From Candidatus Enterousia sp. (GTDB lineage Bacteria > Pseudomonadota > Alphaproteobacteria > Rs-D84), in the NCBI GenBank assembly GCA_045630455.1, contig JAZQTD010000044.1, positions 6,335 to 70,334 on the forward strand: a DNA stretch of 64,000 nt. Reading direction: 5' to 3'. Positions 351 to 60,361 of this stretch are shown in pieces; the stretch's first letter is position 1; every line of letters begins with the position of its first letter. A model generated the notes under the pieces. The model saw only the letters and a list, made by a program, of their open reading frames with translations, did no database searches and had not been told where the DNA came from. A program made the translations under genes and the position numbers.

Positions 351-377
351 ATCCCCACTTTTTGTGGGGTATTTTTT
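351..377 (+). terminator. intrinsic terminator
   Basis: CCCCAC/GTGGGG stem followed by ATTTTTTT just after the stop at 346. Confidence 0.7.
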
Positions 378-12848: not shown

Positions 12849-12873
12849 AAATCCCCCGTTTTGGGGGATTTTT
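12847..12873. terminator. bidirectional terminator
   Basis: AAAAATCCCCC-GTTTT-GGGGGATTTTT between convergent dksA and tatA. Confidence 0.85.
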
Positions 12874-14149: not shown

Positions 14150-15883
14150 TTACAGTGGCAATTTCACTGCATCTTTCATCATTTCGACAAATTCGGCAAG
14201 TGGCATTGATTCCTGTTTTTCCTGACCCAAGCGACGCAAAGTCACCATTTTGTCGGCTGCTTCTTTTTCACCAACAACAGCAATGATTGGTGTTTTTGCC
14301 AATGACAGTTCGCGGATTTTATAGTTAACCTTTTCATCGCGCAAATCTGCACGTGTATTTACACCAGCTGCGCGCAATGCCGCCACAACTTCGTTTGCAT
14401 ATTCTGCGTGCTTTTCAGAAATCGGCGTGACGACAACAGGCTCTGGCGACAGCCACAGTGGTAAATTACCACCCGTAGATTCCAGCAAGATTCCCATAAA
14501 GCGTTCAATCGAACCCAACATTGCACGATGCAACATAATTGGACGATGCTTTTCACCATCTTCACCAACATAACTCAAATCGAATCGTTCAGGCAAGTTC
14601 ATATCCAATTGCACCGTACCGCACTGCCATACGCGCCCCATTGAATCGCGCAGATAGTTATCAATTTTTGGGCCATAGAACGCCGCGTCACCTTCTGCGA
14701 TTTCAAATTCAATACCATTTGATTCCAGTGCGTGCTTCAACGCCCCTTCGGCCTTGTCCCAGATTTCATCACTTCCAATACGGAATTCTGATTCTTTACG
14801 CGTTGCCAATTTCATCGTAATTTTATCAAATCCGAATTTACTGTAAATATCTTTGATAAAGCGCAATATTTTAACAACTTCTTCTTCTAACTGTTCTTCG
14901 GTACAGAAGATATGCGCATCGTCTTGGGTAAATTCACGCACACGCATCAGACCAGACAAACCACCCGCTGCTTCATAGCGATGAACCTTGCCAAATTCGG
15001 CCATATACAGCGGTAAATCTTTGTATGAGCGCAGCCCGTGTCCAAACACCAACATACCACCCGGGCATGACATTGGCTTAATACAAAACACTTTACCATC
15101 TTGGGTTTTACCAGAATAGTTATGTTCCCCATATTTTGCCCAGTGACCTGATCTTTCCCACAGACATCTGTCCATAACCGCCGGCGTTGAGATTTCCTGA
15201 TATCCCGCCAATTCTTGACGATGACGCACATATTCAATCAAACGACGATAGATTTTGTACCCCTTGTCATGCCAAAACACAGACCCCGGCGCATATTCAG
15301 GTTCAAAATGGAACAAGTCCATATCTTTACCCAGTTTACGGTTATCACGTGCGGCGGCCTCTTCCTGCATTTTCAAGAATTGTTCTAGTTCTTCTTTGCT
15401 CGCAAATGCATCAACATAGATACGCTGCAACATTTTATTTTTTGCGTCCCCCTTCCAGTATGCACCGGCAACACTGCGGATTTTAAAACTGTCGCGTGGC
15501 AAGTCTTTAGAAGATTCCACATGTGGCCCACGACACAAATCCGTAAAATCGCGGAAAGAATAGATTGATAAAGCTTCGCCCGCTGCATCATATTCATTCA
15601 ACCATTCCATTTTATATGGTTGCGCGGCGAAAATTTCTTTGGCTTCATCTAAACCAACATTGCGCTGTTCAAAGCGACCATTTGATTTGATTAAATCACG
15701 CATTTCTTTTTCGATTTTTGCAAAGTCTTCTTCGGAAAAACGATATTCTGTATCGAAATCGTAATAGAAACCATTTTCGATTGCCGGCCCACCCGCAAAC
15801 TTTACATCTGGGTGTAATTTTTTAACCGCCGCCGCCATAACATGCGCCAGCGAATGACGAATAACTTCGATATCATATGACAT
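14150..15883 (-). CDS. thrS: threonine--tRNA ligase (no N-terminal TGS domain)
   Basis: RHSLAH, DLCRGPH, RDNRKLG, KPMSCP, RVREFTQDDAH, QCGTVQLD and LHRAMLGSIERF motifs. Confidence 0.98.
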   Translation of the reverse strand: MSYDIEVIRHSLAHVMAAAVKKLHPDVKFAGGPAIENGFYYDFDTEYRFSEEDFAKIEKEMRDLIKSNGRFEQRNVGLDEAKEIFAAQPYKMEWLNEYDAAGEALSIYSFRDFTDLCRGPHVESSKDLPRDSFKIRSVAGAYWKGDAKNKMLQRIYVDAFASKEELEQFLKMQEEAAARDNRKLGKDMDLFHFEPEYAPGSVFWHDKGYKIYRRLIEYVRHRQELAGYQEISTPAVMDRCLWERSGHWAKYGEHNYSGKTQDGKVFCIKPMSCPGGMLVFGHGLRSYKDLPLYMAEFGKVHRYEAAGGLSGLMRVREFTQDDAHIFCTEEQLEEEVVKILRFIKDIYSKFGFDKITMKLATRKESEFRIGSDEIWDKAEGALKHALESNGIEFEIAEGDAAFYGPKIDNYLRDSMGRVWQCGTVQLDMNLPERFDLSYVGEDGEKHRPIMLHRAMLGSIERFMGILLESTGGNLPLWLSPEPVVVTPISEKHAEYANEVVAALRAAGVNTRADLRDEKVNYKIRELSLAKTPIIAVVGEKEAADKMVTLRRLGQEKQESMPLAEFVEMMKDAVKLPL

Positions 15884-15963
15884 AATAATTGTCCCTTGTG
15901 TTTTTTATTATTTTTTTGACTGATTGATTATAAGAATTAACGCGGCCCACCGCAATACAGAAA

Positions 15964-16020
15964 TTACACCCCCAACGGGGTTGTAGTAGTTGTTGTAAAG
16001 AAAAACTTAAACAAGTTCAT
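15964..16020 (-). promoter_or_regulatory. Thr-rich leader peptide ORF of thrS (MNLFKFFFTTTTTTPLGV)
   Basis: ATG AAC TTG TTT AAG TTT TTC TTT ACA ACA ACT ACT ACA ACC CCG TTG GGG GTG TAA; six consecutive Thr codons; ends 80 nt before thrS. Confidence 0.9.
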
Positions 16021-16027
16021 GTTTTAC

Positions 16028-16056
16028 ATCATATGCCTATTTTTCAACAAAATCAA
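16028..16056 (-). promoter_or_regulatory. promoter of the thrS leader (leaderless start)
   Basis: TTGATT-N17-TATGAT with 7 nt to the leader ATG. Confidence 0.75.
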
Positions 16057-16061
16057 GCAAA

Positions 16062-16082
16062 TTCCCCGCAATGTGCGGGGAA
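16062..16082 (-). terminator. terminator of the Cys-rich orphan gene
   Basis: TTCCCCGCA-ATG-TGCGGGGAA 9-bp stem just after the stop at 16086. Confidence 0.75.
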
Positions 16083-23272: not shown

Positions 23273-23479
23273 ATGAAAAAAATATCTGTATCTTTGTCGG
23301 GTCATCAAACCAGTATCACCCTGGAACCAGAATTTATTGATATATTAAAAAAGATTGCCGCCGCACGCAACACATCGGTTGCATCAATTATTTGTGAAAT
23401 AGATAATACACGTACACCGGAAACCAACCTGTCCTCTGCTATACGCGTGTGGATTTTGAATCAAGTTATGAAACATTAA
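23273..23479 (+). CDS. ribbon-helix-helix protein (RHH_4 type)
   Basis: KISVSLSGHQTSITLEPEF...L..IA..IC.ID..NLSSAIRV. Confidence 0.85.
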   Translation: MKKISVSLSGHQTSITLEPEFIDILKKIAAARNTSVASIICEIDNTRTPETNLSSAIRVWILNQVMKH

Positions 23480-25491
23480 TCTTTTTTATCAACTGCATTC
23501 ATTGCAATTGCGGACATGCACGCAAATGCTAGTATAATTATAAACCACCAATTCATACCCAACGCGCGATATGGTGTCATATGCGCACCCCATACAAATC
23601 CATCAATATGCCCAGATACACCAATTGGCATACTGTCAATTATCACACCGTCTGCACCAACAAAAGCACTTATTCCTGAATAGTTCGCCCTAACAATCGG
23701 CAATCCTGATTCAATTGCATAACGGCGCACCATATCCAAATGTTGATATGCCCCAGGCGTTTTACCAAACCAATTATCGTTTGTAATATTGATAATCGCA
23801 TCTGGACTTAATGCCGCGCCACGTGGGATTAAAGAATCTGAAAAAATAATCTCATAGCATACCGCAGGCGCAAAAACAAAATCACGTCCAGAAATATTCA
23901 GGCTGATTAATTCTGGCCCATCACCTGGGGCTAAATTCGCCGGACTTGGCAAAAACCCAAGTGGGCTATATTCCCCAAATGGCACCAAGTGTGATTTGCT
24001 GTATACGCGGGTAATACGCCCATTTTCATCAGAAACTACCAGCGAATTTTGCACCCCAACCGATGGATTATACGTTGTTGCACCGATAATAACATTTGTC
24101 CCCAGTGCCGTTCCCAACGGCATTTTGTCCCCATCAACCAATGCAAACGGATATGTCGTTTCGGGATAAACTATTAAATCAGGACTAATATCCCCCACCC
24201 CCATAAACAACAATTTATCCAGATTTTCTTCGGCATTTTTTATTGCCTGTTCACGATTATGCGTTGCCTTTTGCGTTTGGGATAAAGAAGGTTGAACAAT
24301 GCGAATCAATTGCGGTTTTAATTCTGCACCACTATCAGCACGCATCATATTTTCACGCCCCGCAAACACCCCCACCAGCAACAAAACAATAAACGCCATC
24401 AACGTTGCAATATTTATACGACGACGATGCTTACACAGAACCTCAACCACCGCAGCACAAAAACCAACAATTATAAACGTCAGTCCCAACGCCCCCCATA
24501 ACGACATCGAATTTGCAAGCCATGGCATCGGCATAGAAATATTTGCAATAGGATTCCACGGAAAACCTGTAAACACCCATTCTCGCAACCATAAAACAAT
24601 TGTCCAAACACCTGCAAAAAAGAACGGACGTGCCGCAGACTTCATCTGTACAACACGCAAAATTGCAAACGGCACACCAAATATGATTGCACCCGCCAGC
24701 CCCAATCCAATTATCCCAGGCACAGTCCAAATCGCATATTGTGCGGTTATTTCAGGCACAACATAGATTGAATTTAACGCCCACCAAAACATAGAAATTC
24801 CATACATTGCACCAAATGGCAACACATGCAAAAATGCACGCCAAAATCCAACCGATTTATCCGCCCGTACGGTCAACCAATACGCCACCATTAAACATAT
24901 CAACGTCAACCACCACATATTAAATGGAGCAAATCCAAACGCCGCAAACGCACCAAACACTGCGTACAGCGCATATTGCCAAAAACCATCAACACGCAAA
25001 TTAAACCTTTTTAACCACGCAAACAATCCCGCCCCCGGACACCCATGTTCACATTCTGCAATCAAATCATCGTACGGATTTTTTATCCCCAATTTTGCAA
25101 GAATTTTTATTTCTTTACCTTCCATTTGTTTTGCCTGTTTATCGGTTAAATGGTCATACCCCAAAAGATGCAACACACCATGCACAACCATATGCGCCAC
25201 GTGTTCTGCGACAGATTTTTTTTGTTCGGTGGCCTCACGTTTGACTGTGTCCAGCGATATATAAATATCCCCCAACAACACATCATCACCCAATTCAAAA
25301 GACAGAACATTTGTCGGGCTGTCTTTGCCACGATAATCACGATTAAGCGCATGAATTTCCGCATCATCAGTCAAGACGATTGATACCTCTGCATCGGGTG
25401 ATGCTAAAGAATCCAGCGCAGACACGATTTTTTCAAAATCGATTTTATATTTTTTCCACCGCTTATCATGTATATCAACAAAGACTTTCAT
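23476..25491 (-). CDS. ybeY-lnt: YbeY endoribonuclease / apolipoprotein N-acyltransferase Lnt fusion
   Basis: LNRDYRGKDSPTNVLSF and HGVLHLLGYDH, then in frame GFPWN, YPE, KSHLVPFGEY, VCYE and NDNWFG. Confidence 0.9.
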   Translation of the reverse strand: MKVFVDIHDKRWKKYKIDFEKIVSALDSLASPDAEVSIVLTDDAEIHALNRDYRGKDSPTNVLSFELGDDVLLGDIYISLDTVKREATEQKKSVAEHVAHMVVHGVLHLLGYDHLTDKQAKQMEGKEIKILAKLGIKNPYDDLIAECEHGCPGAGLFAWLKRFNLRVDGFWQYALYAVFGAFAAFGFAPFNMWWLTLICLMVAYWLTVRADKSVGFWRAFLHVLPFGAMYGISMFWWALNSIYVVPEITAQYAIWTVPGIIGLGLAGAIIFGVPFAILRVVQMKSAARPFFFAGVWTIVLWLREWVFTGFPWNPIANISMPMPWLANSMSLWGALGLTFIIVGFCAAVVEVLCKHRRRINIATLMAFIVLLLVGVFAGRENMMRADSGAELKPQLIRIVQPSLSQTQKATHNREQAIKNAEENLDKLLFMGVGDISPDLIVYPETTYPFALVDGDKMPLGTALGTNVIIGATTYNPSVGVQNSLVVSDENGRITRVYSKSHLVPFGEYSPLGFLPSPANLAPGDGPELISLNISGRDFVFAPAVCYEIIFSDSLIPRGAALSPDAIINITNDNWFGKTPGAYQHLDMVRRYAIESGLPIVRANYSGISAFVGADGVIIDSMPIGVSGHIDGFVWGAHMTPYRALGMNWWFIIILAFACMSAIAMNAVDKKD

Positions 25492-29221: not shown

Positions 29222-29247
29222 AAAAATCCCCCATCCGGGGGATTTTT
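29222..29247. terminator. bidirectional terminator
   Basis: AAAAATCCCCC-ATCC-GGGGGATTTTT. Confidence 0.85.
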
Positions 29248-30059: not shown

Positions 30060-30129
30060 GATTTTAATCCTCTCTCCGATTTATTACAAATCACCGCCCC
30101 CATATCGGGGACGGTGTATTTTTATATTT

Positions 30130-31556: not shown

Positions 31557-31584
31557 AAAAATCCCCGCACTTGCGGGGATTTTT
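31557..31584 (-). terminator. terminator of ftsK
   Basis: AAAAATCCCCGCA-CT-TGCGGGGATTTTT (apical loop likely larger in RNA). Confidence 0.8.
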
Positions 31585-45013: not shown

Positions 45014-45042
45014 TTGCTTTTTTATACGAATAGTCTTATAAT
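45014..45042 (+). promoter_or_regulatory. sigma70 promoter of the serS leader
   Basis: TTGCTT-N17-TATAAT with 9 nt to the leader ATG. Confidence 0.8.
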
Positions 45043-45051
45043 AACAATAAT

Positions 45052-45105
45052 ATGAAATGTGAATTTAGTTTTTTCAGTTTTTCTTCATCCCCGTTGGGGG
45101 AATAA
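45052..45105 (+). promoter_or_regulatory. Ser-rich leader peptide ORF of serS (MKCEFSFFSFSSSPLGE)
   Basis: ATG AAA TGT GAA TTT AGT TTT TTC AGT TTT TCT TCA TCC CCG TTG GGG GAA TAA; five Ser codons; ends 72 nt before serS. Confidence 0.88.
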
Positions 45106-45177
45106 TTTATCTGTGTACTTTTTCATAATTTTGCATACAATAACAAACAATTAAACAAATCCATAAGGGGATAAAAT

Positions 45178-46456: not shown

Positions 46457-46484
46457 AAAAAATCCCCCAACCGGGGGATTTTTT
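46457..46484. terminator. bidirectional terminator
   Basis: AAAAAATCCCCC-AACC-GGGGGATTTTTT. Confidence 0.85.
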
Positions 46485-60337: not shown

Positions 60338-60361
60338 AAATCCCCCGTTTGGGGGATTTTT
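60336..60361. terminator. bidirectional terminator
   Basis: AAAAATCCCCC-GTTT-GGGGGATTTTT. Confidence 0.85.

What the first reader, a model, noticed from the sequence alone, without database searches (positions are those of the whole stretch)
45088..45115. One shared 'cognate run-Pro-Leu-Gly-X-stop' cassette may regulate several aminoacyl-tRNA synthetase genes
Seen: the thrS leader (15969-15980, minus strand) and the serS leader (45089-45100) share the exact 12-mer CCCCGTTGGGGG, then two variable bases, then TAATTT and (A)TCTGT. In both, the first C is the wobble base of the last cognate codon (ACC/TCC), the core reads Pro-Leu-Gly in the same frame and the stop sits at the same position. Both leaders are near-leaderless, 17-18 aa, Phe-rich upstream and 72-80 nt from the synthetase. 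The hairpin resembles this genome's stereotyped ATCCCC-Nn-GGGGAT terminators. Inference: a modular system in which a common hairpin/pause/stall cassette is paired with an interchangeable amino-acid sensor, possibly replacing T-boxes genome-wide. Candidate mechanisms are terminator occlusion by the stalled ribosome, Rho loading on the G-poor spacer, or SD sequestration. This is the best candidate for an undescribed system in the window.
Basis: partly seen in the sequence, partly recalled or inferred. Interest (0 to 1): 0.92.

Follow-up and report, generated by a model that had tools for sequence, protein, structure and literature searches.

The report
Cognate-codon leaders of thrS and serS
In front of the threonyl- and seryl-tRNA synthetase genes of a small-genome gut alphaproteobacterium sit two sister mini-genes, each a leaderless 17-18-codon frame that ends in a run of the matching codons fused to a small terminator-like hairpin. 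They most likely let the ribosome report how well that amino acid is being decoded; this is a compact new version of a known trick, not a genome-wide system.

Summary
CCCCGTTGGGGG-NN-TAATTT occurs exactly twice in the window. Each copy lies at the 3' end of a short ORF (MNLFKFFFTTTTTTPLGV*, MKCEFSFFSFSSSPLGE*), 80 and 72 nt upstream of thrS and serS.

A scan of 185,579 species genomes returned 80 loci (the cap). Of these, 76 come from Candidatus Enterousia and related gut Alphaproteobacteria, and all 76 lie upstream of thrS (Thr-run leader) or serS (Ser-run leader). No Rfam family matches.

What is conserved:
- a sigma-70-type promoter whose -10 box ends 7 nt (thrS) or 9-10 nt (serS) before the ATG, with no Shine-Dalgarno, so the ORF is leaderless;
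- cognate codons, most strictly next to the hairpin;
- the hairpin itself.

Hairpin variants keep the stem through compensatory changes: A-U versus U-A closing pair, CGCCC/GGGCG, and ACCCGC-UAA-GCGGGU. The peptide tail changes meanwhile (PLGV, PVGR, R, PFGVRI). Pro-Leu-Gly is therefore a by-product of the hairpin sequence, not an arrest motif.

I found no antiterminator, no conserved Shine-Dalgarno sequestration and no long-range helix.

gltX has no leader in two genomes, and no Ala or Pro version turned up. The "modular, genome-wide" reading is not supported.

Best reading: two paralogous, antiterminator-free leader-peptide attenuators. The mechanism and its sign remain inferred.

The parts
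45014..45042 (+). serS leader promoter P1: -35 TTGCTT (45014-45019), 17-nt spacer, -10 TATAAT (45037-45042)
   Evidence: Read. Across 29 unique serS leaders the best -10 is TATAAT in 25, ending 9-10 nt before the ATG, and none has a Shine-Dalgarno-like sequence.
45052..45105 (+). Near-leaderless serS leader ORF, 17 sense codons plus TAA: MKCEFSFFSFSSSPLGE*
   Evidence: Homologous ORFs stand before serS in 34 clade loci. Length changes are multiples of 3.
45076..45090 (+). Ser-codon cluster AGT-TTT-TCT-TCA-TCC (a further AGT lies at 45067-45069)
   Evidence: Ser frequency by position relative to the hairpin: -1 100%, -2 97%, -5 93%, with synonymous variation (TCA/TCG); -3 and -4 are variable.
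45088..45101 (+). Hairpin 1 of the serS leader: U-CCCC GUUG GGGG-A, -9.4 kcal/mol; its 5' arm is the last Ser codon plus CC of the Pro codon
   Evidence: Closing pair U-A here versus A-U in thrS leaders.
45102..45115 (+). A/U-rich tail ATAATTTATCTGTG containing the stop codon TAA (45103-45105)
   Evidence: flagged as a terminator-like tail. Much weaker than the genome's canonical GGGGGATTTTTT tails.
45106..45177 (+). 72-nt unstructured, G-poor spacer with the serS Shine-Dalgarno AAGGGGA (45165-45171); no second hairpin and no second promoter in this genome
45178..46455 (+). serS (seryl-tRNA synthetase, 425 aa)
   Evidence: TIGR00414, 417 bits.
16028..16056 (-). thrS leader promoter P1: TTGATT-17-TATGAT; the -10 ends 7 nt before the ATG
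   Evidence: A 7-nt distance in 35 of 43 unique thrS leaders, -35 score >=4/6 in 39 of 43, no Shine-Dalgarno in any. The upstream gene's own terminator is at 16084-16060.
15964..16020 (-). Leaderless thrS leader ORF, 18 sense codons plus TAA: MNLFKFFFTTTTTTPLGV*
   Evidence: 42 homologous ORFs before thrS.
15979..15996 (-). Six Thr codons ACA ACA ACT ACT ACA ACC
   Evidence: Thr frequency: 100% at -1 to -3, 98% at -4, 88% at -5, 84% at -6. Synonymous differences between clades (ACG/ACC/ACT/ACA).
15965..15985 (-). Hairpin 1 of the thrS leader. Core A-CCCC GUUG GGGG-U (15981-15968); extendable to 8 bp (UACA/UGUA) that includes UA of the stop codon; -11.2 kcal/mol
15941..15954 (-). Hairpin 2 (U)GCGG UGGG CCGC(G), followed by GUUAAUUCUUAUAAU
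   Evidence: 95% of cells paired in 37 distinct sequences; the innermost pair is GC:19, AU:11, UA:2.
15927..15955 (-). Putative second promoter P2: TTGCGG-17-TATAAT, overlapping hairpin 2
   Evidence: Motif TTGCNN-N16-18-TAnnnT in 39 of 41 unique thrS spacers and 13 of 25 serS spacers. This rests on sequence only.
14150..15883 (-). thrS (threonyl-tRNA synthetase, 577 aa, no TGS domain); Shine-Dalgarno AAGGGA at 15897-15892
   Evidence: TIGR00418, 685 bits.

Best explanation
Two paralogous, lineage-specific leader-peptide attenuators of the most compact kind.

Anatomy. Each has its own sigma-70-type promoter. The transcript begins at, or 2-3 nt before, the AUG of a 17-18-codon ORF that has no Shine-Dalgarno. 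The last sense codons before a G+C hairpin are cognate for the downstream synthetase (Thr for thrS, Ser for serS). The hairpin's 5' arm starts inside the last cognate codon. The stop codon lies in the hairpin loop or 0-9 nt after the stem. An A/U-rich tail follows, so the element looks like a weakened copy of the genome's own intrinsic terminators.

Proposed working (inferred). The ribosome translating the leader is the sensor. When charged tRNA-Thr or tRNA-Ser is scarce, the ribosome dwells on the run. With the A site on any of the last 3-4 cognate codons, its front edge (about +12 to +15 nt from the P site) covers the 5' arm. The terminator/pause hairpin cannot form, so more polymerases, or more usable mRNA, reach the synthetase gene. 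When decoding is fast, the ribosome leaves at the adjacent stop, the hairpin forms and expression is damped.

Specificity sits only in the codons. The Thr and Ser versions differ by A<->U at first codon positions, plus a compensating change in the closing base pair.

What is shown: the anatomy, the conservation, the codon-gene match, the hairpin covariation and the absence of an antiterminator. What is inferred: the transcription start, termination at the hairpin, and the sign of the response.
For: - Codon-gene match in 76 of 76 clade loci.
- Cognate identity is kept with synonymous variation and is strictest next to the hairpin (clade variants).
- ORF length changes come only in multiples of 3; the ATG is invariant.
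- Leaderless geometry is conserved and there is no Shine-Dalgarno.
- The hairpin is kept through compensatory changes. A-U (37 sequences) versus U-A (26) at the closing pair explains Val versus Glu as the last residue. Variants are CGCCC/GGGCG, ACCCGC-UAA-GCGGGU, and loops UUUG and GUUC.
- The hairpin plus tail is scored terminator-like and has the same core as the genome's canonical terminators.
- The window's serS leader has no other structure and no second promoter, so hairpin 1 alone must carry any regulation there.
- Published precedents: leader-peptide attenuators before pheST, trpS and leuS, and actinobacterial ilvB leaders whose codon runs overlap a terminator without an antiterminator (PMC1262725); leaderless poly-Cys sensor ORFs in mycobacteria (bioRxiv 10.1101/834739).
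Against: - There are no expression data.
- The U tract is poor (UGUAAUUUCU, AAUAAUUUAU), and poorer still in the common species of L172. The hairpin is -9 to -11 kcal/mol against -20.6 for a canonical terminator.
- Geometry problem (my inference). The polymerase would release about 7-9 nt after the stem, only about 20-25 nt beyond the last cognate codon. A ribosome can therefore sit on those codons at that moment only if it directly abuts the polymerase, and a fast ribosome would mask the hairpin just as well. On its own, this favours the opposite sign (rival 1).
- thrS appears to have its own promoter downstream of the leader, which would limit what the leader controls.
- Some relatives do without a leader (L081, L163, L165, L169, L171).
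Confidence: 0.45

Rival explanations
1. Same parts, opposite sign: a pyrBI/pyrE-like coupling attenuator. The hairpin, and in thrS hairpin 2 about 10 nt after the stop, terminates or pauses the polymerase unless the pioneer ribosome follows closely and unwinds or occludes it. The ribosome's front edge reaches the base of the hairpin just as its A site reaches the first cognate codon, so every further step into the hairpin needs a cognate aminoacyl-tRNA. Read-through, and with it synthetase synthesis, would rise with the supply of charged tRNA and fall on starvation. P2, or leakiness of the hairpin, would give a floor.
For: - The ORF runs through the hairpin, as in pyrBI, and the stop lies about 10 nt before hairpin 2, as in pyrE (the pyr comparison is my own knowledge).
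- With the A site on the first Thr codon, or on AGT at -5 in serS, the protected mRNA ends at the first base of the stem (coordinates).
- No antiterminator exists.
- The leaderless start favours early ribosome loading.
- The P2 promoter in 39 of 41 thrS spacers could supply basal expression.
Against: - It gives positive feedback on an essential enzyme. Every described synthetase control (T-box, pheST attenuation, thrS autoregulation) is homeostatic (my own knowledge; PMC1262725).
- The most conserved cognate codons are those adjacent to the hairpin. A stall there would mask the stem rather than let it form.
- The window's serS has no P2 to provide a floor.
Confidence: 0.2
2. Post-transcriptional control, as in mycobacterial poly-Cys leaderless ORFs or ermC. 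Full-length mRNA is always made. A ribosome parked on the run either opens a structure that hinders translation of the synthetase gene, or shields the 5' end and the A/U-rich site after the hairpin from RNases, raising synthetase output on starvation.
For: - This model has no timing problem.
- Precedent: 10.1101/834739.
- In serS leaders, the predicted unpaired probability of the Shine-Dalgarno/start region rises from 0.46 to 0.61 when the run is masked. In the window and its closest relatives, AUCCCC is complementary to the serS Shine-Dalgarno GGGGAU.
Against: - No change for thrS (0.46 versus 0.47).
- No consensus long-range pairing.
- Duplexes between the 5' part of the ORF and the spacer are no better than shuffled controls (mean z -0.1 and +0.2).
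- The Shine-Dalgarno complementarity is limited to a few genomes.
- It does not explain the terminator-like shape of the hairpin.
Confidence: 0.13
3. Rho-dependent attenuation, as in tna, mgtL or toiL. The pyrimidine- and C-rich, G-poor stretch made by the Phe codons and the ACN/UCN run is the Rho loading site. A stalled ribosome covers it. After normal termination at the adjacent stop it is exposed, and the hairpins act as pause sites that let Rho catch the polymerase.
For: - From codon 5 to the end of CCCC the RNA is 32% C and 4% G in thrS leaders, and 28% C and 10% G in serS leaders, against G >= C in the genes.
- The serS spacers are unstructured and G-poor.
- It gives the homeostatic sign without an antiterminator.
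- It would explain why only amino acids with C in the second codon position are served.
Against: - The C-rich stretch is only about 30 nt and has few YC dinucleotides.
- Its C-richest part is paired in the hairpin.
- The thrS spacer is A-rich, not C-rich.
- The presence of rho in these reduced genomes was not tested; none lies in the window.
Confidence: 0.12
4. Not a sensor. Either a small independent gene for a hydrophobic peptide, or simply a promoter-proximal terminator that happens to be readable as an ORF.
For: There is no experimental evidence of regulation. Some relatives lack the leader. L172 carries a degenerate serS version.
Against: - Perfect Thr/thrS and Ser/serS pairing in 76 loci.
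- Codon identity is conserved with synonymous change, and indels are in frame.
- The peptide tail is not conserved while the RNA stem is.
- The element is absent before 79 distant serS genes.
Confidence: 0.05

Closest known systems
Classical leader-peptide transcription attenuators (trpL, hisL, thrL, pheL; pheM-pheST of gamma-proteobacteria; predicted trpS and leuS attenuators of Streptomyces, PMC1262725)
   Same: A short upstream ORF with a run of codons cognate to the regulated gene's amino acid, followed by a terminator-like hairpin. Synthetase genes are among the known targets.
   Different: - No antiterminator or pause-hairpin pair.
- The ORF is leaderless rather than Shine-Dalgarno-led.
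- The single hairpin lies inside the ORF, touching the run.
- No sequence or covariance-model similarity to any Rfam leader family.
- The targets are thrS and serS in Alphaproteobacteria.
Actinobacterial ilvB leaders: short ORFs whose Ile/Val/Leu runs overlap a terminator hairpin, with no antiterminator (PMC1262725); Bacteroid-trp leader, RF01692 (PMC2864571 supplement)
   Same: The same reduced architecture: a cognate run overlapping or abutting a lone terminator-like hairpin. The mode of action is unresolved there too.
   Different: Different phyla, genes and sequences. Those leaders precede biosynthetic operons, whereas here they precede two synthetase genes with one shared, nearly invariant hairpin cassette.
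Polycysteine leaderless short ORFs of mycobacteria (bioRxiv 10.1101/834739)
   Same: A leaderless sensor ORF with consecutive cognate codons near its end; several loci are coordinated only through the ribosome.
   Different: There the stalled ribosome opens a duplex that sequesters the downstream ribosome-binding site. No such conserved duplex is found here. Here a terminator-like hairpin is the conserved element.
pyrBI and pyrE attenuators of E. coli (my own knowledge)
   Same: The leader ORF runs through, or ends about 10 nt before, a terminator hairpin, and a closely following ribosome would prevent its formation.
   Different: Those sense UTP through polymerase pausing and have no cognate codon run. 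Applied here, this logic would give an inverse response to amino-acid supply.
T-box riboswitches and the E. coli thrS operator (my own knowledge)
   Same: They are the usual cis-regulators of thrS and serS in other bacteria.
   Different: There is no T-box match. The same hairpin serves thrS and serS and its loop is not anticodon-like, so it cannot be a synthetase-specific tRNA mimic.

Membership tests
Classical ribosome-mediated transcription attenuator (trp/his/thr/pheST type) | Short ORF upstream of the gene with a run of codons cognate to the regulated pathway | tested here: met
   Six Thr codons before thrS and five Ser codons before serS. The match holds in 76 of 76 clade loci. Positional conservation is given.
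Classical ribosome-mediated transcription attenuator (trp/his/thr/pheST type) | Intrinsic terminator (G+C hairpin plus U tract) between the leader ORF and the gene | tested here: inconclusive
   Hairpin 1 passes the simple terminator scan. However, it lies inside the ORF, is only -9 to -11 kcal/mol, and has an interrupted U tract, against -20.6 kcal/mol for a canonical terminator.
Classical ribosome-mediated transcription attenuator (trp/his/thr/pheST type) | Mutually exclusive antiterminator (2:3) structure | tested here: not met
   The consensus fold gives only hairpin 1 (plus hairpin 2 in thrS). Hairpin 2 persists when the run is masked. No duplex is better than shuffled controls.
Classical ribosome-mediated transcription attenuator (trp/his/thr/pheST type) | Expression responds to cognate aminoacyl-tRNA supply | not testable with these tools
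   The organism is uncultured and no expression data were accessible.
Rfam leader families (Thr_leader, His_leader, Leu_leader, Trp_leader, Bacteroid-trp, leu/phe leader) and T-box | Match to the family covariance model | tested here: not met
   No hit at gathering thresholds in the 64-kb window. Only noise at E<=10 in the two leader regions.
Leaderless sensor short ORFs (mycobacterial poly-Cys type) | Transcript starts at or next to the start codon; no Shine-Dalgarno | tested here: met
   The -10 box ends 7 nt (35 of 43 thrS leaders) or 9-10 nt (27 of 29 serS leaders) before the ATG, and 0 of 72 have a Shine-Dalgarno-like sequence. The transcription start itself is inferred, not mapped.
Leaderless sensor short ORFs (mycobacterial poly-Cys type) | Stalled ribosome disrupts a duplex that sequesters the downstream ribosome-binding site | tested here: not met
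   thrS: unpaired probability of the Shine-Dalgarno/start region is 0.46 free versus 0.47 stalled. serS: 0.46 versus 0.61, and not conserved in sequence. No conserved long-range pairing.
Coupling attenuators (pyrBI/pyrE type) | Leader ORF extends through, or ends within about 10 nt of, the attenuator hairpin | tested here: met
   The stop codon is in the loop (L168) or 0-9 nt after hairpin 1, and 10-12 nt before hairpin 2.
Coupling attenuators (pyrBI/pyrE type) | The signal is nucleotide-dependent polymerase pausing, not codon identity | tested here: not met
   The conserved gene-matched codon runs point to aminoacyl-tRNA as the signal.
Rho-dependent leader control (tna/mgtL type) | C-rich, G-poor unstructured Rho loading site that the stalled ribosome can cover; rho gene present | tested here: inconclusive
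   The run region is 28-32% C and 4-10% G, but it is short. rho was not found in the window, and the genomes could not be searched.
   The tail is PLGV/PLGE in pattern-selected loci. In loci found through the protein it is PVGR, R or PFGVRI, while the stem is maintained.

The most novel reading that the evidence does not exclude
A minimal, portable amino-acid sensor made of a promoter, a leaderless ORF, a codon run and one hairpin, with no antiterminator.

Nature has re-targeted it from one synthetase gene to another by A<->U changes at first codon positions (ACN<->UCN), together with a compensating flip of the closing base pair.

It would work by a logic not yet demonstrated for any synthetase gene: either direct steric masking of a terminator that lies inside the sensor ORF, or an inverse, coupling-dependent 'make the synthetase only when its aminoacyl-tRNA is being used' control.

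Because the stem needs a codon ending in CC, the design would be usable only for Thr, Ser, Pro and Ala.
Probability: 0.3. Interest if true: 0.8.

Novelty: new variant of a known kind. Interest (0 to 1): 0.62.

Why it matters
How Alphaproteobacteria, which have no T-boxes, regulate their synthetase genes is largely unknown. In genome-reduced gut symbionts such as Enterousia (0.75-1.0 Mb, no amino-acid biosynthesis reported; PMC12306168), almost nothing is known about regulation at all.

This pair of leaders would be the first cis-regulator proposed for that lineage. It is also a natural specificity-swap experiment: the cassette is the same and only the codons, plus one compensating base pair, differ.

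At about 60 nt, with no alternative fold, it is about the smallest conceivable ribosome-based sensor. It forces a clear question that can be tested with simple reporters: can a single hairpin inside a leader ORF give homeostatic control, or does it give inverse control?

It is also an easily recognised family that could be added to RNA and small-ORF annotation resources.

Tried and rejected
- **Generic terminator.** Rejected. The exact 11-mer occurs only in thrS/serS leaders in 608 kb of clade DNA, and the covariance model finds no other copy.
- **Pro-Leu-Gly arrest peptide.** Rejected by the variants.
- **Classical antiterminator.** None in consensus folds or constrained folds.
- **Long-range helix between the 5' part of the ORF and the spacer.** It looked attractive in single serS sequences, but it is no better than shuffled controls.
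- **Conserved Shine-Dalgarno sequestration.** Absent for thrS and weak for serS. The AUCCCC/GGGGAU complementarity is confined to the window's close relatives.
- **T-box-like tRNA binding or a ThrRS operator mimic.** The same hairpin serves both genes, there is no UGGN/anticodon-like loop, and there is no Rfam hit.
- **Programmed frameshifting at the U-rich Phe codons.** The spacing to the hairpin (15-18 nt) is wrong.
- **Search for other synthetases.**
  - The metagenome scan with a SerRS alignment returned almost only distant serS genes (36-46% identity). It served only as a negative control: none of the 79 carries a cassette.
  - Motif and phmmer screens of the fetched loci found no further synthetase genes apart from gltX.
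  - The exact serS protein of the window is not on record.
  - Other synthetase genes of these genomes could not be reached.
- **Depth of conservation.** The thrS of L011 is only 50% identical, which first suggested very deep conservation. One search shows instead a mosaic thrS, with the N-terminal 180 residues about 88% identical. The cassette-bearing clade is therefore shallow (SerRS >=80% identical).
Full report
**1. The observation**

- The 12-mer CCCCGTTGGGGG occurs exactly twice in the window, at 45089-45100(+) and 15980-15969(-). With up to one mismatch there are four matches against 0.11 expected. The two imperfect ones are ordinary gene-end terminators.
- Reading both sites gives two short ORFs:
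  - ATG AAA TGT GAA TTT AGT TTT TTC AGT TTT TCT TCA TCC CCG TTG GGG GAA TAA (45052-45105, +)
  - ATG AAC TTG TTT AAG TTT TTC TTT ACA ACA ACT ACT ACA ACC CCG TTG GGG GTG TAA (16020-15964, -)
- They lie 72 nt and 80 nt upstream of ORFs that NCBIfam identifies as serS and thrS.
- The genome's regular terminators are stereotyped: AAAAATCCCCC-N3-5-GGGGGATTTTT. The leader hairpins share that core but lack the A and T runs.

**2. Organism and spread**

- A scan of one genome per species (185,579 species) with CCCCGTTGGGGGNNTAATTT returned the maximum of 80 loci.
- I expected about 17 chance matches from pattern length and database size (my own arithmetic). Four of the 80 are unrelated organisms.
- The other 76 are MAGs named Candidatus Enterousia, 'Alphaproteobacteria bacterium' or 'Rickettsiales bacterium' from animal and human guts.
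- Enterousia belongs to the uncultured alphaproteobacterial order Rs-D84, with genomes of 0.75-1.0 Mb (PMC12306168; taxonomy).
- In every one of the 76 loci the pattern closes a short ORF:
  - 42 read M.LFK.FFTTTTTTPLGV* and precede a 577-587-aa ThrRS gene;
  - 34 read ..F.FFS..SSPLGE* and precede, or are cut off next to, a 425-429-aa SerRS gene.
- The pattern would equally have matched cassettes whose last codon is GCC (Ala) or CCC (Pro). None appeared.
- A covariance model built from 66 leaders finds only these two copies in the window, even with filters off. It finds only thrS and serS leaders in about 770 kb of related DNA.
- The third synthetase gene in the window, gltX (19291-17714, -), starts inside the end of the preceding gene and has no leader. 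The same holds for gltX in L177.
- No Rfam family, T-box included, matches.
- Of 80 serS loci retrieved by protein from metagenomes, 79 are distant (36-46% identity) and none has a Ser-run leader with a hairpin. The one close relative (79%) has serS directly behind trxB, without a leader.

**3. What is conserved (shown)**

- *(a) Promoter and leaderless start.*
  - In 43 unique thrS leaders the best -10 hexamer ends 7 nt before the ATG in 35, with a TTGATT/TTGACT -35 in 39.
  - In 29 unique serS leaders a TATAAT (25 of 29) ends 9-10 nt before the ATG.
  - None of the 72 has a Shine-Dalgarno-like sequence.
  - The ORFs are therefore leaderless or carry a 2-3-nt leader. This is inferred from promoter geometry; no start site has been mapped.
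- *(b) Translation.* The ATG is invariant. All length differences in the ORF are multiples of three. Cognate codons vary synonymously between clades, for example ACT ACG ACC ACG ACC in L011 and ACC ACC ACG ACG ACC ACG ACC in L168.
- *(c) Cognate run.*
  - Thr is 100% at the three codons next to the hairpin, then 98%, 88% and 84% further upstream.
  - Ser is 100% at -1, 97% at -2 and 93% at -5, but only 45% at -3 and 28% at -4.
  - Two Phe codons precede the run in 84-97% of leaders.
- *(d) Hairpin.*
  - It is a 5-bp core with a tetraloop, -9.4 kcal/mol in serS leaders.
  - In thrS leaders it can extend to 8 bp, including UA of the stop codon, -11.2 kcal/mol.
  - The closing pair is A-U in 37 thrS-type and U-A in 26 serS-type sequences. 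The A/U that distinguishes ACC from UCC is thus compensated on the other side, which is why the last residue is Val (GUG) in one leader and Glu (GAA) in the other.

**4. Unbiased relatives**

The genome scan fixed the hairpin sequence, so I also fetched thrS and serS loci through the proteins. These loci show the following.

| Locus | Leader peptide | Hairpin | Note |
|---|---|---|---|
| L161 | MSYKLFIFTATTTTPLGV* | ACCCC UUUG GGGGU | Loop change through a synonymous Pro codon |
| L166 | MIKSFVLFTATTTPVGR* | CGCCC GUU GGGCG | Compensatory stem change; different peptide tail |
| L168 | MQKRLMTTTTTTTTR* | ACCCGC UAA GCGGGU | Stop codon in the loop; tail ACAUAUUCUUUUGCUUUUUU |
| L055 | as canonical | as canonical | TAAATT instead of TAATTT |
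| L172/L173 (very common species) | MTKIFLSFDTLSSPFGVRI* | UCCCC GUUC GGGGU | Weakened serS leader |

- All of these fold at the same place with -8.6 to -11.2 kcal/mol.
- The RNA stem next to the run is therefore what selection keeps. Pro-Leu-Gly is only what CCCCGUUGGGG spells in that frame.
- Several relatives have no leader: thrS directly after the rplQ terminator in L163, L165 and L171, and none in L169.
- The clade is shallow, with SerRS at least 80% identical among carriers. The 50% identity of some ThrRS proteins reflects a mosaic gene, not depth.

**5. Other elements**

- thrS leaders, and 13 of 25 unique serS leaders, carry a second small hairpin 10-12 nt after the stop.
- It is 95% paired in 37 distinct thrS sequences, and the innermost pair is G-C in 19, A-U in 11 and U-A in 2.
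- It coincides with a good promoter-like motif, TTGCNN-N16-18-TAnnnT, usually TTGCGG-17-TATAAT, present in 39 of 41 thrS spacers. thrS may therefore also be transcribed from a second promoter downstream of the leader.
- The window's serS has neither hairpin 2 nor such a motif. Hairpin 1 is the only structured element common to all members.

**6. Structures looked for and not found**

- No consensus structure other than the hairpins.
- Hairpin 2 persists when the run is masked, so there is no antiterminator.
- The predicted accessibility of the synthetase ribosome-binding site does not change for thrS (0.46 versus 0.47). It changes modestly for serS (0.46 versus 0.61).
- Duplexes between the 5' part of the ORF and the spacer are no stronger than shuffled controls.

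**7. Mechanism (inferred)**

- The anatomy is that of a leader-peptide attenuator reduced to a sensor ORF plus one terminator-like hairpin. I am about 85% confident that the element is a cis-regulator that reads decoding of cognate codons by the ribosome.
- Which step it controls, and with which sign, cannot be read from sequence.
- Geometry, using the usual values (mRNA protected to about +15 from the first P-site base; unwinding at about +11 to +13; my own knowledge):
  - With the A site on the first Thr codon (or on AGT at -5 in serS), the ribosome ends exactly at the base of the stem.
  - With the A site on any of the last 3-4 cognate codons, it covers the 5' arm.
- The codons nearest the stem are the most conserved. 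This fits 'a stalled ribosome masks the hairpin, so expression rises on starvation', the homeostatic sign of every known synthetase control. I take this as the best explanation (0.45).
- Its weakness is timing. The polymerase would be released only about 20-25 nt beyond the last cognate codon, so only a ribosome that abuts the polymerase can be on those codons at that moment, and a fast ribosome would mask the stem too.
- Taken at face value, that favours a pyrBI/pyrE-like inverse control (0.20).
- Two other readings give the homeostatic sign without the timing problem:
  - a ribosome parked on the run acts after transcription, on translation or mRNA decay (0.13);
  - it covers a Rho loading site. 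The stretch from codon 5 to CCCC is 28-32% C and 4-10% G (0.12).

**8. Comparison with the known**

- Leader-peptide attenuation of synthetase genes is known for pheST and predicted for trpS and leuS of Streptomyces.
- Runs overlapping a lone terminator, without an antiterminator, were noted upstream of actinobacterial ilvB, with the mode of action unresolved (PMC1262725).
- Leaderless sensor ORFs are documented in mycobacteria, where they act on translation (10.1101/834739).
- The present leaders combine these features. They precede thrS and serS, belong to no curated family, and form a paralogous pair whose specificity was exchanged by first-position A<->U changes plus one compensating pair.
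- I found no paper describing them.

**9. Verdict**

- The claim of a modular, genome-wide system and the Pro-Leu-Gly module are not supported.
- This is a new variant of a known kind, of moderate to high interest.

Noticed in passing
window 14150-15883 (-), compared with P0123 / L161:3001-4758: Mosaic thrS. The first ~180 residues (editing domain) are about 88% identical between the window's ThrRS and that of a related clade, but the catalytic and anticodon-binding part is only about 38% identical. The SerRS proteins of the same clades are 80-82% identical. One lineage seems to have exchanged the catalytic core of thrS while keeping the leader and the N-terminal domain. Both ThrRS forms lack the TGS domain (577-596 aa).
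   Followed up: partly
window 15927-15955 (-); L001-L080 thrS spacers: A near-consensus promoter-like motif TTGCGG-17-TATAAT sits between the thrS leader and thrS, overlapping hairpin 2. It is present in 39 of 41 unique thrS spacers and 13 of 25 serS spacers, but not in the window's serS spacer. If real, thrS has a leader-independent promoter, and polymerases coming from the leader would run across it.
   Followed up: partly
window 353-369, 12853-12866, 29228-29240, 31563-31578, 46464-46476, 60342-60354 (also 16064-16080, 30097-30110): Highly stereotyped, symmetric (bidirectional) intrinsic terminators AAAAATCCCCC-N3-5-GGGGGATTTTT at gene ends, about -20 kcal/mol. The leader hairpins look like cut-down copies of these.
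   Followed up: partly
window 1-64000: Strong and uniform negative GC skew on the + strand (-0.10 to -0.27 in 8-kb windows), with most genes on the - strand.
   Followed up: no
window 23476-25491 (-): One 671-aa reading frame combines a YbeY endoribonuclease domain with apolipoprotein N-acyltransferase domains (LNT_N, CN_hydrolase). This is either a gene fusion or two genes without an intervening stop.
   Followed up: no
L172/L173:9745-10000; L081:1240-1500: In a very common Enterousia species the serS leader is degenerate: only three Ser codons, the stop 9 nt further downstream and a poor U tract. In another relative, serS follows trxB directly with no leader. The element is therefore dispensable, or decaying, in some lineages.
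   Followed up: partly
window 15979-16005 (-) and 45064-45092 (+): The part of each leader from codon 5 to the end of CCCC is strikingly C-rich and G-poor (thrS leaders 32% C and 4% G; serS leaders 28% C and 10% G), on strands whose genes have G >= C. Two Phe codons (UUC UUU / UUU UUC) directly before the run are conserved in 84-97% of leaders, for no reason I could establish.
   Followed up: partly
L027 (CAVGNU010000003.1, labelled Bacteroides fragilis): This contig carries a typical Enterousia-type serS leader and a SerRS 81% identical to the window's. It is probably mis-binned in the public record.
   Followed up: no
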